A stretch of DNA of 64,000 nucleotides, from contig JAPOWQ010000049.1 of the NCBI GenBank assembly GCA_026707585.1, positions 25,845 to 89,844 on the forward strand, written 5' to 3'. A program made the position numbers and the translations under genes. Below, piece by piece: positions 9,015 to 53,184 of this stretch. Source of the DNA: Chloroflexota bacterium (GTDB lineage: Bacteria; Chloroflexota; UBA11872). Positions within the stretch are counted from its first letter, which is position 1, and every line of letters starts with the position of its first letter. Under the pieces are notes generated by a model. It was not told the origin of the DNA. It did no database searches and saw only the letters and a program-made list of their open reading frames with translations.

Positions 9015-10004
9015 ATGCACGCGACCGACGTGGCCTACGAACCCTCGCCCACGCTAGGCCATTGGGCGAACGATTTGGCGTCGATTGATCGTCGCCAGGA
9101 AGCCACAACCCAGGCAACGGGCGCGCCGGACACGGCGCGCGCCACCGGCGACGCGTCGATCGAGGACACCATGCGGCTCTATCTGAACGAGATCAACCGC
9201 ATCCCGCTGCTGACGGCCGCCGAGGAAGTCGCCCTCGCCAAGCGTGTGGAAGCCGGCGACGCCGCCGCCCGCCAGCGCCTGGTGGATGCCAACCTGCGGC
9301 TGGTCGTCAACGTCGCCAAGCGCTACGCCGCGGGCGGCCTGCCGCTGCTGGATCTCATCCAGGAAGGCAACCTGGGGCTCATGCAGGCCGTGGAGCGCTT
9401 TGACTGGCGTCGCGGGTTCAAGTTCAGCACCTACGCCACCTGGTGGATACGCCAGGCCATCACGCGCTCGCTCTCCAACGATTCGCGCACCGTCCGTCTG
9501 CCCGTGCACGTGGTCGAAGCGCTCCGCAAGATTCGAAAGCTGACGCCCGAGCTCGCTCAGGAAATGGAGCGGGAACCCACGCCCGCCGAATTGGGCGAGG
9601 TCCTGGGCATGGCGCCGGAGCGGGTCGTTGAAATCGTACGTGCCGGCCGCGCGCCCACGTCCCTGGAACAGCCCGTCGGTGAGGACGGCGATGAGTCACT
9701 ATCGGACTTCGTGGAAGACCCCGATCCCGATACGGCCGACCGCGCTCTGCTGGCCGGAACCCTTCGCGACGACCTGCACCGCGCCCTGGCCATCCTTCCC
9801 GATCGCCAGCAGACCATCCTGGTGCGACGCTTTGGCCTGGACGGTCAGGAACCCTGGACCCTGGACCAGATTGGCACGCACTTCGGGGTGACTCGCGAGC
9901 GCATCCGGCAGTTACAGGTCGAGGCGTTGCGCAAGCTCAAGCGCTCCAGCGTCTCCCGCGATCTGCGCGACTACCTGAGCGTGCCCGGCATCGGCCTCAA
10001 CTAA
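9015..10004 (+). CDS. RNA polymerase sigma-70 family factor (RpoD/SigA-like, groups 1-2)
   Basis: Region 1.2 'MRLYLNEINRIPLL', region 2 'LIQEGNLGLMQAVERFDWRRGFKFSTYATWWIRQAI' and region 4 'TLDQIGTHFGVTRERIRQ'. Confidence 0.85.
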   Translation: MHATDVAYEPSPTLGHWANDLASIDRRQEATTQATGAPDTARATGDASIEDTMRLYLNEINRIPLLTAAEEVALAKRVEAGDAAARQRLVDANLRLVVNVAKRYAAGGLPLLDLIQEGNLGLMQAVERFDWRRGFKFSTYATWWIRQAITRSLSNDSRTVRLPVHVVEALRKIRKLTPELAQEMEREPTPAELGEVLGMAPERVVEIVRAGRAPTSLEQPVGEDGDESLSDFVEDPDPDTADRALLAGTLRDDLHRALAILPDRQQTILVRRFGLDGQEPWTLDQIGTHFGVTRERIRQLQVEALRKLKRSSVSRDLRDYLSVPGIGLN

Positions 10005-19426: not shown

Positions 19427-19507
19427 GCCGGGGTGGCGGAACGGTAGACGCACGGGACTTAAAATCCCGGGACTTCGGTCGTATGGGTTCGAATCCCATC
19501 CCCGGTA
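19427..19507 (+). tRNA. tRNA-Leu (anticodon UAA), type II with long variable arm
   Basis: Acceptor stem 'gccgggg/ccccggu' (G1.U72). Anticodon stem-loop 'cggga-cuUAAaa-ucccg'. T-arm 'augggTTCGAAUcccau'. Discriminator A, with no encoded CCA. Confidence 0.75.
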
Positions 19508-19655
19508 CCGCGGATCGGTGGTCAGTGGACAGTCGATGGTGAGTGGCCGTGAAACCCTGCCGTGGTCCAGGCGTTGCACCCTGCACTTGGTCGCGCCCCT
19601 TCCCCCGATCCGCTCGGCCTCTTGGCGTCGCGCCTGAGCGCTGCAAATAACTCAT

Positions 19656-20573: not shown

Positions 20574-23081
20574 GTGGAACGCGAACCCGACGAATACGCC
20601 CCGGTCGAGTATCTCCGCCGCCTCACCGGCCGTGGTCGCCGCGTGATCCAGCATGCCGAGCTCGAAGCCGCCCGCCTCGGCCACGACGCCGTCGGCCCGG
20701 GCCACGTCCTTCTGGCCATCCTCGAGTCTCCCCAAACAGCCGCCGCCCGCGTCCTGCGCGACTCCGGGGTCGACCTGGCGCCGCTCCGCCAGACGCTCGT
20801 CGACACCCTGCCTCCCGGCTTTGCGCGCGACGATGGTCGCCGACCGCTCTCGGCACAGGGCCGCAACGTCCTCCGCTCCGCCGCGCTGGAGGCGGAACGC
20901 ATGGGCGTCCGCTTTATCGGCACCGAGCACTTGCTGCTCGGCGCGCTGGCCAATACCGGTCGCCTGACGTCCAGCGCGCTGGCCGCCGCCGGCGTCGAGT
21001 TCCGCTCGCTTCGCCGTCGCGTCGAAGCGGCCTACCAGCCGGGCTCTCCCGGCCGCGGCCGCCGCCGGCGCGGACGGTGGCGGGGTCGCGGGCGGCGCAG
21101 CAAGCCGCGCAGCATGCTGGCCGAGTACGGCAGCGACTTCACCAACGCCGCTCGCACCGGCGACCTGGACCCCGTCATCGGCCGCCAACTTGAGATGGAC
21201 CGCGCCATCGAGGTTCTGCTGCGGCGCACCAAGAACAACCCGGTGCTCGTAGGCGACGCCGGTGTCGGAAAGACCGCCATTGTGGAAGGCCTGGCCCACC
21301 GCATCGTCAGGGGCGACGTGCCGGCAGAGCTGCTCAATCAGCGGCTGGTTTCCCTCAGCCTCCCCGGCATGATCGCCGGCGCCAAGTATCGCGGCGAGTT
21401 CGAGGAGCGTGTCCAGCAGCTCATTGCCGAGGTCCGCAAGAGCGGTGACGTCATCCTTTTCATCGACGAGCTGCACACGGTCATCGGCGCCGGCGGCGCG
21501 GCGGGTTCGCTGGACGCCGCCAACCTGCTGAAGGGCCACCTCGCCCGCGGCGAGGTCCAAGTCATCGGCGCGACCACCTGGCGCGAATACCGCCGCTACA
21601 TCGCCAACGACAAGAGTCTCACCCGCCGCTTCCAGCCCATCGACGTTGACGAACCCAGCGACGACGACGCCATCGAGATCCTCAAGGCCCTGCGCCCGAT
21701 TTACGAGTCATATCACGGCGTCGAGGTGACCACCGAAGCCGTTGACGCTTCGGTTCACCTGTCGCGCCGCTACGTCACATCGCGCCAGCTGCCCGACAAG
21801 GCCATTGACCTGGTGGACGAGGCCGCCGCCCGGGCCAAGGTGCAGCGCCAGACCCCGCCCACCCGAATTCTCGAACTGCTGCGTCGCATCAAGGAGTTGG
21901 ACGCCGAAATCGCGGCAGAGCCCGAATCGCCGGACGACCCGGCACATCCCCCAGCCGCTAGGCGTCGCGTACGCGACCAGGTCGCTGACGAGCTCCGCGA
22001 CGAACGGGCCGCCTGGGAAGCCGAGGTCGGTATGGACCGCCCCGTCATCACGCCGCACGAAATCGCGGAGGTCCTCTCGTCCTGGATTGGCGTACCGCTG
22101 CCCGCCCTGGCCGAGAACGAATCCGACCGCTTCCTGCACATGGAAGACGATCTGCGCAAGCGTGTCGTCGGTCAGGACGACGTACTCGCCGAACTCGGTC
22201 GCGCCCTGCGCCGGGCCCTGGCCGGCATGCGAGACGAGCGCCGACCGATCGGCTCATTCCTGTTCCTTGGCGAATCCGGTGTCGGCAAGACCGAGACAGC
22301 CAAGGCCTTAGCCGAGTTCGTCAGCGGCACCGACGACAACCTGGTCCGCGTCGACATGTCGGAGATGTCTGAGTACCACAGCATCTCCCGGCTGATCGGT
22401 TCGCCGCCGGGCTACGTTGGCTTTGACGAAGCTGGTGGGCTCACCGAGGCGGTGCGCCGCAATCCGTACTCGGTCGTCCTATTCGACGACGTGGAGAAAG
22501 CCCACCCGCGGACGTTGCAGGTGCTGCTGCAGATCCTGGAGGACGGCCTGCTCACCGACGCCAACGGTCGCCATGTTGACTTCCGCAACACCATCGTCGT
22601 GCTGACCTCGAATCTTGGCGTCGACCAGGTCACGGGGCCGTCCATCGGGTTCGAATCCTCGTCCATCTCCGCGCGCCGCCATACCGCGTACGAAGCCCGC
22701 ATCCGCGAGTACGCCCGCCGCCAGCTTCCTGGGGAGTTTCTGAACCGGCTCGACCGCCTCGTCGTCTTCCGCGCGCTCGAAGAGGAGGACATCCGAGAAA
22801 TCGCACGTCGGACGCTCTCGGACGCCATCCTGCGCGCCGAGAGCCTCGGCATCCGGCTGCACATCACGTCCGACGCGCTGGACTACATCGTTAACGTAAC
22901 CCTGGGGCGTCGAGCCGGAGCTCGACCAATCGCGCAGTTGGTCGGCGAGTACGTTGATCAGCCGCTCACCGACCACGTGATGCAGGATTCCGCGGAGGAA
23001 CGCGAGTTTGAGTTGCGCGTGCAAGACGGCAATCCCGCGGTTGTCGAAACCGCTCCAAGCCCGGCGGGCACTGCCGGCTAG
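20574..23081 (+). CDS. clpC: ATP-dependent Clp protease ATP-binding subunit ClpC (Clp_N x2, two AAA+ modules, short middle domain)
   Basis: GTG start preceded by 'gaggagg'. '[15 protein letters not shown]', '[14 protein letters not shown]' and '[19 protein letters not shown]'. An Arg-rich linker '[21 protein letters not shown]' follows the N-domain. Confidence 0.85.
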
Positions 23082-28025: not shown

Positions 28026-28670
28026 CTAGGCATCATCAGCATCTGCCGGGACCAGCGGCAGATTCGTTCGCTCAATTTCGGTTTGCTCGCGTCGGCGCCG
28101 CGACTCATTAATGGTGTCCAGCATTTCCTGGACGCCACCCTCGCCAAAGTAGCCCGACGCGTAACGTACGTAGGTGACCTCGTCGAGGGTGACCAAGCGC
28201 TCCATGACCAAGCCGGCGATGTGCTTCGATGGTACGTCTAGGGTGTCACGACCGAGCAGCTCGTTCTCGATTTCGATGGCGGCCTCGTCTGCCCAGTTGC
28301 TGGAGACTGGGCGCTTCGTCCCGGCGATCATGATCGAGCGATAGAGCTTGCCGCGGTTGAAGGGCTCGCTTCGACCGTCGTCCTTGATCACGCGGATGTC
28401 CATACGCGCCAAACGCTCCAGCGTCTGATAGCCCAGCCCGCAATCAGCGCAGCGGCGGCGGCGGCGCATGGTTCCCTGCGATGTTAATTCCCACGTCTCC
28501 ACTCGCGCTTCGTCGTGTCCACAGTGCGGGCACGTGTAGATTTCACGACGCTCGTAGGTCGTAAAACGACGGCCGCATTCCAGGCAGGCGCGGCGGCGGC
28601 GGGTGGCATCGGCGGCCTCACGCGTGTCTACTACCTGCAATCGTCCTGACGAGCAAGATGGACACCGCAT
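28026..28670 (-). CDS. nrdR: Transcriptional repressor NrdR with a tandemly duplicated N-terminal zinc ribbon and C-terminal extension
   Basis: First ribbon 'MRCPSCSS...RRRRACLECGRRFTTYER'. Second ribbon 'YTCPHCGHD...RRRRRCADCGLGYQTLE'. ATP-cone 'RVIKDDGRSEPFNRGKLYRSIMIAGTKRPVS...'. Confidence 0.8.
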   Translation of the reverse strand: MRCPSCSSGRLQVVDTREAADATRRRRACLECGRRFTTYERREIYTCPHCGHDEARVETWELTSQGTMRRRRRCADCGLGYQTLERLARMDIRVIKDDGRSEPFNRGKLYRSIMIAGTKRPVSSNWADEAAIEIENELLGRDTLDVPSKHIAGLVMERLVTLDEVTYVRYASGYFGEGGVQEMLDTINESRRRREQTEIERTNLPLVPADADDA

Positions 28671-28748
28671 ATCGCGCTTTCTCCGGAGACTCTGCGGGGA
28701 GCCGTATCACGCGCCCACTACATATAGCATGTCAGGGCTCAAGGCCGA

Positions 28749-29225
28749 ATGGGTAGTCGACATCTCTCGGCACAAGCCGACCACCGGCCAAGCAGGAAAC
28801 CAATGTCACACGAATCTGTCGGCCCGCGACGTCTGGCGCCCACGCGTCTCGATCACGTGGCGATCAACGTGCGGGACCTCCACCGGAGCGCCGCGTTCTA
28901 CGCCCGTGTCTTCAACCTGATGCCGCAGGCGCGTTCGACGTTTCGCCACGTACTCTCGGCGCCCGGCTTCTTGCTTCACTTGTTCCAGGCGCCGGCACGG
29001 CGACCGGAAGCTGGCGCCCGCGACTGGCGGCGACTGGGCGTGCAACACGTGGCGCTGGCGTTGGGCGAGGCTGAGTTCGAACGCGCCGCCGAGGTCATTG
29101 TCGCCGCCGGATCGGCAGTCGAGGGACCCACGGAAGACCCCAAGGGTCGTTCCCTCTACTTTCGAGATCCGGATGGCAACGTTATCGAATTGCGCAGCGC
29201 GTGGGATCCAGCCCGAGTTGCGTAA
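28749..29225 (+). CDS. VOC family protein (glyoxalase/bleomycin-resistance/dioxygenase fold)
   Basis: 'LDHVAINVRDLHRSAAFYARVF...LYFRDPDGNVIEL'. The start is probably the internal Met (~28803). Confidence 0.7.
   Translation: MGSRHLSAQADHRPSRKPMSHESVGPRRLAPTRLDHVAINVRDLHRSAAFYARVFNLMPQARSTFRHVLSAPGFLLHLFQAPARRPEAGARDWRRLGVQHVALALGEAEFERAAEVIVAAGSAVEGPTEDPKGRSLYFRDPDGNVIELRSAWDPARVA

Positions 29226-45754: not shown

Positions 45755-47938
<2,184 letters not shown>

Positions 47939-50940: not shown

Positions 50941-53184
<2,244 letters not shown>

What the first reader, a model, noticed from the sequence alone, without database searches (positions are those of the whole stretch)
28026..28670. 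NrdR repressor with a tandemly duplicated zinc-ribbon and an extra C-terminal tail
Canonical NrdR is ~150 aa: one Cys4 ribbon plus an ATP-cone. This 214-aa protein has the usual ribbon (CPSC...CLEC, ending RRFTTYER) followed immediately by a second complete CxxC...CxxC unit ('YTCPHCGHD...RRRRRCADCG'). Then come the ATP-cone and a ~35-aa charged C-terminal extension. A duplicated DNA-binding module could change operator spacing or oligomer geometry of this nucleotide-sensing repressor.
Basis: seen in the sequence. Interest (0 to 1): 0.5.

Follow-up and report, generated by a model that had tools for sequence, protein, structure and literature searches.

The report
NrdR repressor with two zinc ribbons
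This gene encodes a real, conserved variant of the bacterial repressor NrdR, which shuts off DNA-building-block synthesis; it carries two zinc-ribbon modules instead of one, and the extra copy appears to have kept its pairing surface but lost its DNA-reading residues.

Summary
ORF 28026-28670 (-) encodes a 214-aa NrdR with two complete NrdR-type Cys4 ribbons (aa 1-44 and 45-90). Each ribbon passes Pfam's cut-off alone. An ATP-cone and a C-terminal helix plus tail follow.

It is not an artefact. About 37 protein clusters in a probably Chloroflexota clade share the architecture, down to 36% identity. Ribbon 2 is under purifying selection (dN/dS 0.11-0.15).

The same architecture is standard in Pirellulales (Planctomycetota), with at least 118 clusters, and seems to have arisen there independently.

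In both lineages ribbon 1 keeps every DNA-recognition residue. Ribbon 2 keeps the four Cys and the ribbon-ribbon salt-bridge residues, but loses the base-reading pair and varies at the DNA-facing arginines.

The best NrdR-box match in the 64-kb window lies 60 nt upstream of the gene. Close orthologues carry two boxes 40 bp apart.

My reading: a working nucleotide-sensing repressor in which ribbon 1 reads canonical boxes and ribbon 2 is a pairing/spacer module. Whether it changes operator spacing is untested, because I could not reach any ribonucleotide reductase (RNR) promoter.

I found no paper describing tandem ribbons in NrdR. Verdict: new variant of a known kind, moderate interest.

The parts
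28026..28670 (-). nrdR coding sequence (214 aa plus stop codon), double-ribbon variant
   Evidence: ORF list. TIGR00244 144.4 bits against cut-off 124.65. PDB NrdR chains match at E 2e-21.
28539..28670 (-). Zinc ribbon 1 (aa 1-44), the canonical DNA-reading ribbon: C3, C6, C29, C32; D15, R17, R24-R27, R35, E40
   Evidence: PF22811 60.4 bits alone. All DNA-recognition residues are conserved in the clade apart from one outlier sequence, and in 118/118 Pirellulales sequences. pLDDT 92-95.
28401..28538 (-). Zinc ribbon 2 (aa 45-90), the diverged copy: C47, C50, C74, C77; R56, R70, R72, E85 invariant; T59 and E61 replace D15 and R17
   Evidence: PF22811 36.6 bits alone. Invariant columns. Residue table. 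dN/dS 0.11-0.15. Three strands, pLDDT 84-92. In PDB alignments and Foldseek this ribbon plus the cone superposes on whole E. coli NrdR.
28149..28397 (-). ATP-cone (aa 92-174), the nucleotide sensor
   Evidence: PF03477 52.2 bits. Aligns to E. coli and S. coelicolor NrdR cones. Foldseek hit 9fxk_F with TM 0.81 normalised to the target.
28029..28148 (-). C-terminal helix (aa 180-202) and tail; conserved motif N203-L-P-L-V-P208 (nt 28047-28064) followed by an acidic end
   Evidence: AlphaFold2 helix 180-202, tail pLDDT 46-57. L206 invariant and P208 at 90% or more in the clade. Tail comparison.
28715..28730 (-). Proximal NrdR box (minus-strand read ATGCTATATGTAGTGG), -60 to -45 from the ATG
   Evidence: Best-scoring of 96 box cores in the 64-kb window. 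It sits at the same position, -60 or -61, in all seven orthologous promoter sequences. In their alignment the only invariant columns are C, A, A, T, T, G, which match the six highly conserved box positions C4, A6, A8, T9, T11, G13 (PMC13584703).
28755..28770 (-). Distal, degenerate NrdR box (CCGAGAGATGTCGACT; C4 replaced by A), 40 bp upstream of the proximal box
   Evidence: Aligned to full boxes at -100 or -101 in orthologues L002, L093/L094 and L095. It keeps 5 of the 6 key positions. Read directly from the sequence.
28701..28709 (-). Possible extended -10 element (TGATACGGC; TGnTATGAT in orthologues), 5 nt downstream of the proximal box
   Evidence: Inferred from sequence conservation. The consensus promoter scan found nothing here.

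Best explanation
This is a functional NrdR, the nucleotide-sensing repressor of ribonucleotide reductase genes, built as ribbon 1 - ribbon 2 - ATP-cone - C-terminal helix and tail.

Ribbon 1 is the DNA reader and recognises canonical NrdR boxes, including one or two at its own promoter, which implies autoregulation. Ribbon 2 is a folded, zinc-binding copy that occupies the position the single ribbon has in ordinary NrdR. It has kept the surface by which NrdR ribbons pair with each other and has lost the base-reading surface.

I infer that ribbon 2 pairs with the ribbon 2 of another chain and holds the tetramer together as usual. The ribbon 1 pair would then sit on top as the reading head, on a longer and stiffer arm. 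This should change the distance or angle between the two DNA-binding heads.

Shown: the architecture, its conservation, the selection on ribbon 2, the residue pattern, and the box at the promoter.

Inferred: which ribbons pair, and any effect on operator spacing.
For: Family membership: TIGR00244 above its cut-off, two PF22811 hits and an ATP-cone, and NrdR as the top sequence and fold match in the PDB.

Real and conserved:
- About 37 clusters of 201-235 aa, down to 36% identity, in independent short- and long-read assemblies that include circular 3-4 Mb contigs.
- Ribbon 2 dN/dS is 0.11-0.15. Ribbon 1 is 0.07-0.12 and the cone 0.06-0.10.

Residue split (residue roles from papers):
- Ribbon 1 keeps D15, R17, R26-R29, R37 and E42 in 118/118 Pirellulales sequences. 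In the 36 Chloroflexota-type sequences, R26-R29 are kept in 36/36 and D15 and R17 in 35/36. R37 and E42 score 30/36; the other six carry a one-residue deletion that shifts the count, and the alignment shows both invariant.
- Ribbon 2 keeps the four Cys, R27, R29 and E42 in 36/36 Chloroflexota-type and 117-118/118 Pirellulales sequences.
- In ribbon 2, position 15 is D in none of the five commonest Chloroflexota-type residues and in only 9/118 Pirellulales sequences. Position 17 is mostly E, and R is absent from the commonest residues listed. Positions 28 and 37 are variable.

The same split is seen in two lineages that appear to have duplicated the ribbon independently. That argues for selection on the pairing surface.

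The linker from ribbon 2 to the cone has the same length as in E. coli. Ribbon 2 plus the cone superposes on E. coli NrdR at rmsd 3.0 A over 148 columns.

Operator evidence:
- The top-ranked NrdR-box match in the 64-kb window is at -60 from the ATG.
- In the alignment of seven orthologous promoter sequences, only the six key box positions are invariant. Both half-sites (C4 and G13) are conserved, which implies two reading ribbons per box.
Against: - No RNR gene lies in the window or in any fetched locus of either lineage. The real regulon and its box spacing are therefore unseen.
- Monomer AlphaFold2 models cannot say which ribbons pair. pTM is only 0.51 and 0.56.
- Ribbon 2 keeps R56, the equivalent of residue 12, which is a phosphate contact in S. 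coelicolor. Pirellulales ribbon 2 also keeps R26. Ribbon 2 may therefore still touch the DNA backbone.
- The 40-bp spacing is effectively one evolutionary observation, because the promoters are orthologous. It also lies inside the range single-ribbon NrdRs tolerate.
- More distant clade members have one box or none at nrdR.
Confidence: 0.55

Rival explanations
1. Ribbon 2 is a second DNA-binding module. Each chain would contact DNA twice, widening the footprint or requiring extra half-sites or a new operator layout.
For: Ribbon 2 keeps an Arg-rich strand and the invariant R56, equivalent to phosphate-contacting residue 12. In Pirellulales R26 is also kept in 114/118 sequences. Box pairs at orthologous nrdR promoters are 40 bp apart instead of the usual 31-32 bp.
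Against: The base-reading residues D15 and R17 are lost from ribbon 2 in both lineages and are often replaced by acidic residues. R28 and R37 are variable. No extra conserved sequence flanks the boxes: only the six canonical box positions are invariant. A 24-bp spacer is already within the range of single-ribbon NrdRs.
Confidence: 0.2
2. The two ribbons of one chain pair with each other, internalising the ribbon dimer. A dimer, rather than a tetramer, would then carry two DNA-binding heads.
For: Both ribbons keep the R27, R29 and E42 salt-bridge residues needed for ribbon-ribbon pairing. The ribbons are joined by only about 5 residues, and the model shows a continuous strand 35-44.
Against: Each head would hold only one base-reading ribbon. 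Yet both half-site positions C4 and G13 of the proximal box are invariant across orthologues. The very short linker may not allow the head-to-head intertwined geometry. The pTM of 0.56 gives no confident packing in cis.
Confidence: 0.12
3. Ribbon 2 is a regulatory lid or docking site. Its acidic replacements at the former DNA face would mask the basic face of ribbon 1 in the off state, or recruit a partner protein.
For: Position 17 is E in 27/36 Chloroflexota-type sequences and E or D in 64/118 Pirellulales sequences. Position 15 is E in 103/118 Pirellulales sequences. In canonical NrdR the off state works by burying the DNA face of the ribbons between tetramers.
Against: There is no direct evidence. 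The acidic residues are not invariant. The strictly conserved residues are those of the pairing surface, not the former DNA face.
Confidence: 0.1
4. The second ribbon is an assembly or annotation artefact, or a decaying duplicate without function.
For: Some database entries do look like artefacts. P0298 and P0301 contain exact internal repeats. The 125-aa and 147-aa 'cone only' clusters exist.
Against: The same architecture appears in dozens of independent assemblies and in two phyla. All four Cys of ribbon 2 are invariant. dN/dS is 0.11-0.15. In the one 'cone only' cluster checked (P0024, 125 aa), the calls are start-codon miscalls with intact ribbons upstream in frame.
Confidence: 0.02

Closest known systems
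Canonical NrdR (E. coli PDB 9FXK, 9FVR, 9GEX; Streptomyces coelicolor 7P37)
   Same: Same family by the equivalog HMM. Same ribbon fold and same ATP-cone. Same DNA-recognition residues in ribbon 1. Same box sequence at its own promoter. Ribbon 2 plus the cone superposes on E. coli NrdR.
   Different: Canonical NrdR has one ribbon of about 45 aa joined to the cone by 4-7 residues. Here a complete extra ribbon is present, and the copy next to the cone has lost the DNA-reading residues.
Double-ribbon NrdR of Pirellulales (Planctomycetota), present in databases only and labelled plain 'transcriptional regulator NrdR'
   Same: Same ribbon-ribbon-cone layout. Same split of conserved and lost residues in ribbon 2.
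   Different: Its cone and both ribbons resemble single-ribbon Planctomycetes NrdR: cone 67% identical, against 41% to the Chloroflexota-type. It keeps the long ribbon loop and lacks the L-V-P tail motif. It therefore seems to be an independent duplication.
Long-spacer NrdR operators of Streptococcus pneumoniae (24-26 bp between boxes)
   Same: Orthologues of this gene have box pairs 40 bp apart, a 24-bp spacer of about four helical turns. As in the S. pneumoniae nrdDG promoter, the downstream box lies over the presumed -35 region.
   Different: S. pneumoniae NrdR has a single ribbon. The long spacer there needs no extra domain.
Two-zinc-ribbon transcription proteins (RNA polymerase I subunit RPA12 and its relatives)
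   Same: Two zinc ribbons in one chain. They appear as weak Foldseek hits.
   Different: No sequence relationship and a poor superposition (rmsd about 27 A). This is an analogy only.

Membership tests
NrdR (TIGR00244) | Whole-protein score above the curated equivalog cut-off | tested here: met
   144.4 bits against a cut-off of 124.65.
NrdR (TIGR00244) | N-terminal Cys4 zinc ribbon of the NrdR type (PF22811) | tested here: met
   Present twice. Alone, the ribbons score 60.4 and 36.6 bits against a cut-off of 27.2.
NrdR (TIGR00244) | ATP-cone directly after the ribbon | tested here: met
   PF03477 at aa 92-174. The linker from ribbon 2 to the cone is as long as in E. coli.
NrdR (TIGR00244) | DNA-recognition residues D15, R17, R26, R28, R37 (E. 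coli numbering) | tested here: met
   All are present in ribbon 1 and conserved in both lineages, apart from one outlier sequence and six sequences with a one-residue deletion. D15 and R17 are absent from ribbon 2, and R28 and R37 vary there.
NrdR (TIGR00244) | Single ribbon plus cone, about 140-160 aa before any tail | tested here: not met
   There are two ribbons and 214 aa in total. This is the variant feature.
NrdR (TIGR00244) | Pairs of 16-bp NrdR boxes in promoters of RNR operons | not testable with these tools
   No RNR gene is in the window or in any locus of the clade. The genomes outside the fetched flanks could not be read.
NrdR (TIGR00244) | NrdR boxes at its own promoter (frequent, not universal) | tested here: met
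   There is a full box at 28715-28730 and a degenerate one at 28755-28770. Orthologues at 75-86% identity carry full pairs.
NrdR (TIGR00244) | ATP/dATP-dependent switching between oligomers, with DNA binding only when loaded with dATP plus ATP | not testable with these tools
   This needs biochemistry. Only the sequence integrity of the cone was checked.

The most novel reading that the evidence does not exclude
The extra ribbon has been fixed at least twice independently, in Chloroflexota and in Pirellulales, because it rewires NrdR's quaternary geometry. It could lengthen the arm so that the repressor prefers four-turn operators. It could instead internalise the ribbon pair so that a dimer does the work of a tetramer. 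Either way this would be a distinct architectural class of NrdR with its own operator grammar.
Probability: 0.2. Interest if true: 0.7.

Novelty: new variant of a known kind. Interest (0 to 1): 0.5.

Why it matters
NrdR is present in most bacteria, controls an essential pathway, and has been proposed as an antibacterial target. Recent work asks what sets the allowed spacing between its two operator boxes, and points to the ribbon-cone linker (PMC12051234).

A natural variant that inserts a whole ribbon at that junction is a ready-made test case for two questions: how ribbon pairing builds the tetramer, and how head-to-head distance sets operator spacing. In this variant the insert keeps only the pairing residues, and it has been selected in two phyla.

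It also matters for annotation. These proteins are labelled plain NrdR, and some are miscalled as 'ATP-cone only' proteins.

Tried and rejected
1. An exact-sequence look-up of the window protein found nothing on record.

2. A genome-contig scan with the clade alignment was swamped by canonical NrdRs. L031, which looked full-length, turned out to be a canonical NrdR with upstream read-through.

3. I tried to find the clade's RNR genes by searching with the class II reductase from the Chloroflexota locus L056 and matching contig lengths to the clade genomes. Only Anaerolineae relatives were returned.

4. A tblastn search with class II and class III RNR sequences against all double-ribbon and Planctomycetes loci gave no hit.

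5. The Planctomycetes loci had no convincing NrdR-box pairs, so they gave no spacing information.

6. A search for the idealised box with up to 3 mismatches found nothing in the window. A weighted score and the published regular expression were needed.

7. The consensus promoter scan found nothing upstream of the gene.

8. A Foldseek search of the two-ribbon unit found no solved tandem arrangement.

9. The Rfam scan of the window found only one tRNA.

Rejected readings: assembly artefact; ribbon 2 as a degenerate linker; the tail as a feature tied to the duplication.

Full report
**Observation**

Pfam reports the NrdR zinc ribbon (PF22811) in two stretches and an ATP-cone at aa 92-174. The NCBIfam NrdR equivalog scores 144.4 bits against a cut-off of 124.65.

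Scanned separately, ribbon 1 (aa 1-44) scores 60.4 bits and ribbon 2 (aa 45-91) scores 36.6 bits. The cut-off is 27.2. Solved NrdR structures align to aa 47-183, that is, to ribbon 2 plus the cone.

AlphaFold2 models both ribbons as three-stranded units. Mean pLDDT is 82 for the whole protein and 90 for aa 1-92, but inter-domain confidence is only moderate, with pTM 0.51 and 0.56. The best fold match is E. coli NrdR: TM 0.81 normalised to the target, rmsd 3.0 A over 148 columns. No solved structure contains the tandem unit.

**Not an artefact, and not unique**

A search of 5.8 billion proteins found about 37 clusters of 201-235 aa with the same layout, down to 36% identity. Canonical NrdRs of 145-168 aa follow in the ranking.

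These clusters come from independent assemblies, including circular long-read contigs of 3-4 Mb. Local gene order is conserved: glyoxalase, nucleotidyl transferase and methyltransferase on one side, and a dienelactone-hydrolase-like gene on the other.

The only cluster that carries an organism name is labelled Chloroflexi or Chloroflexota. The phylum of the window itself is therefore inferred, not shown.

Against the three closest orthologues, dN/dS is 0.11-0.15 for ribbon 2, 0.07-0.12 for ribbon 1 and 0.06-0.10 for the cone.

I checked one of the 'ATP-cone only' clusters, the 125-aa P0024. It is a gene-call artefact: both ribbons are intact in frame upstream, and the position of the start codon reads ATA.

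**A second lineage**

An exhaustive HMMER search with aa 1-92 turned up a different double-ribbon NrdR, P0437. Its relatives number at least 118 clusters of 193-264 aa. Several are named 'transcriptional regulator NrdR [Pirellulales bacterium]'.

A metagenome scan showed that other Planctomycetes have ordinary single-ribbon NrdRs of 155-166 aa with the same cone motif, GLEKACWKRP.

- In a neighbour-joining tree of the cone, the Pirellulales double-ribbon proteins nest with single-ribbon Planctomycetes. Mean identity is 67%, against 41% to the Chloroflexota-type.
- Their ribbon 2 is closest to the Planctomycetes single ribbon (56% identity) and has the long loop of that lineage.
- Both ribbons of the window clade have the shorter loop seen in two of the three single-ribbon Chloroflexota NrdRs examined.

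I read this as two independent tandem duplications. A single origin followed by domain exchange is not excluded, because these are short alignments and a distance tree.

**Which ribbon does what**

Published structures assign D15, R17, R26, R28 and R37 (E. coli numbering) to DNA recognition (PMC9110341; PMC12176259). They assign R27 and R29, pairing with E42 of the partner chain, to the ribbon-ribbon dimer (bioRxiv 10.1101/2025.03.28.645925).

I counted residues at these positions in 36 Chloroflexota-type and 118 Pirellulales sequences.

| Position (E. coli numbering) | Ribbon 1 | Ribbon 2 |
|---|---|---|
| Four Cys | kept; 6 of 36 Chloroflexota-type sequences lack the fourth | kept, 100% |
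| Residue 12 (phosphate contact in S. coelicolor) | Q, R or K | R, 97-100% |
| D15 | kept (35/36; 118/118) | replaced by S, K, V, T or E |
| R17 | kept (35/36; 118/118) | mostly E; R not among the commonest residues |
| R26 | kept, 100% | partly kept (19/36; 114/118) |
| R27, R29 | kept, 100% | kept, 99-100% |
| R28 | kept, 100% | variable (R in 13/36; 21/118) |
| R37 | kept | variable (R in 15/36; not seen in Pirellulales) |
| E42 | kept | kept, 99-100% |

In the window protein the ribbon 2 residues are R56; T59 and E61 at the former D15 and R17 positions; R70 and R72; and E85. R56, R70, R72 and E85 are invariant across both lineages.

Along the Arg-rich strand, the partner-facing arginines are therefore frozen while the DNA-facing ones drift. 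The same pattern appears in both phyla. This is the main basis for calling ribbon 2 a pairing or spacer module rather than a second DNA reader.

**Operator evidence**

No RNR gene lies in the window or beside any double-ribbon nrdR. The gene's own promoter is informative instead.

- The best NrdR-box match among 96 box cores in the 64-kb window is at 28715-28730, which is -60 from the ATG.
- A box sits at -60 or -61 in all seven orthologous promoter sequences I examined, whose proteins are 59-100% identical to the window protein.
- In their alignment the only invariant columns are C, A, A, T, T, G. These match the six positions reported as highly conserved in NrdR boxes (PMC13584703).
- Orthologues at 75-86% identity have a second full box 40 bp upstream. 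In the window this distal box (28755-28770) has lost C4.
- More distant members have one box or none.

As a control, the same scoring applied to single-ribbon loci gave mostly 31-33-bp start-to-start spacing: 9 of 13 pairs, including a Dehalococcoidia nrdR-nrdJ operon at 31 bp.

A 40-bp spacing equals a 24-bp spacer. That is the lower edge of the 'four-turn' class, which single-ribbon NrdRs also bind (PMC12051234). The spacing fits a longer arm but does not prove one, and it amounts to a single evolutionary observation.

**Mechanism**

I conclude that this is a working NrdR. Ribbon 1 reads canonical boxes. The conservation of both half-site positions implies two reading ribbons per box, so ribbon 1 pairs with the ribbon 1 of another chain.

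Ribbon 2 sits where the normal ribbon sits relative to the cone. It most likely pairs with another ribbon 2 and keeps the tetramer together. The result would be a two-tier arm.

Three alternatives remain open:
- ribbon 2 acts as an extra clamp on the DNA backbone;
- ribbon 1 and ribbon 2 of one chain pair with each other, converting the functional unit to a dimer;
- ribbon 2 acts as an acidic lid or docking surface.

All three need multimer modelling or experiments to separate.

**The tail**

Residues 180-202 form the helix that follows the cone in other NrdRs. Beyond it, the clade conserves N/Q-x-x-L-V/I-P followed by acidic residues.

Similar motifs close the tails of many single-ribbon NrdRs from several phyla: QPELF, QLGLW, QLALL, QFVLIP. 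A post-hoc pattern hit 18 of 76 tails, against 0.36 expected from shuffles. The Pirellulales double-ribbon proteins lack the motif. The tail is therefore independent of the duplication.

From my own knowledge, the motif resembles the bacterial sliding-clamp-binding motif QL[SD]LF. I found no paper that links NrdR to the clamp. The NrdR papers call the C-terminal part 'of unknown function'. This is a lead, not a finding.

**Novelty**

The NrdR papers I could search describe one ribbon plus a cone and give a length range of 140-220 residues. None mentions tandem or duplicated ribbons, Chloroflexota or Planctomycetota variants. The sequences themselves are abundant in databases under the plain NrdR name.

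I file this as a new variant of a known kind, of moderate interest.

Noticed in passing
window 28047-28064 (aa 203-208, NLPLVP); also the tails of P0027-P0041, P0043, P0046, P0068, P0087, P0099, and of the NrdR genes in L006, L013, L016, L019, L031, L036, L039, L063: Many tail-bearing NrdRs from several phyla end in a short motif, Q/N-x-x-L-[FWLIV](P), followed by charged residues. A post-hoc pattern hit 18 of 76 tails against 0.36 in shuffles. It resembles the beta-sliding-clamp-binding motif QL[SD]LF. No paper found links NrdR to the clamp.
   Followed up: partly
P0020-P0023 (relatives at 49-52% identity); locus L090 10001-10642: In this subclade ribbon 1 has a one-residue deletion and lacks the fourth Cys (C-x-N-G-H instead of C-x-x-C-G-H). 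A His may serve as the fourth zinc ligand. Ribbon 2 keeps all four Cys.
   Followed up: no
L179 and L180, about 1233-1500, upstream of the called 125-aa gene (P0024): The 'ATP-cone only' gene call is an artefact. Both ribbons are intact in frame upstream. The codon at the position of the start reads ATA in two independent assemblies, and a GTG lies three codons further upstream.
   Followed up: yes
P0377 (384 aa), P0364 (124 aa), P0430 (893 aa): NrdR-type ribbons occur in other contexts. P0377 has two tandem ribbons inserted in an FGE-sulfatase domain protein. P0364 has two tandem ribbons and no cone. P0430 is a complete NrdR (one ribbon plus cone) fused to a class III anaerobic reductase.
   Followed up: partly
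P0298 (179 aa), P0301 (261 aa): These database NrdRs contain exact or near-exact internal repeats of the ribbon, or of ribbon plus cone. They look like assembly artefacts or very recent duplications, unlike the diverged ribbon 2 studied here.
   Followed up: no
P0041 (235 aa): This double-ribbon member has an 18-residue insertion just after the first CxxC of ribbon 1, and a 5-residue insertion at the same place in ribbon 2.
   Followed up: no
L092 about 9860-9935, upstream of nrdR: A run of the 7-mer CCACAAT, at least four copies, lies immediately upstream of the NrdR box in this orthologue.
   Followed up: no
L019 9922-9968: A single-ribbon Dehalococcoidia nrdR-nrdJ operon has a textbook NrdR-box pair 31 bp apart, just upstream of nrdR. 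It served as a positive control for the box scoring.
   Followed up: yes
window 19427-19509; 20574-23081; 45755-47938; 51229-53184: The surroundings are ordinary housekeeping genes: tRNA-Leu(TAA), a ClpB-type chaperone, an H+-pyrophosphatase and GyrB. Nothing here links to nucleotide reduction.
   Followed up: partly
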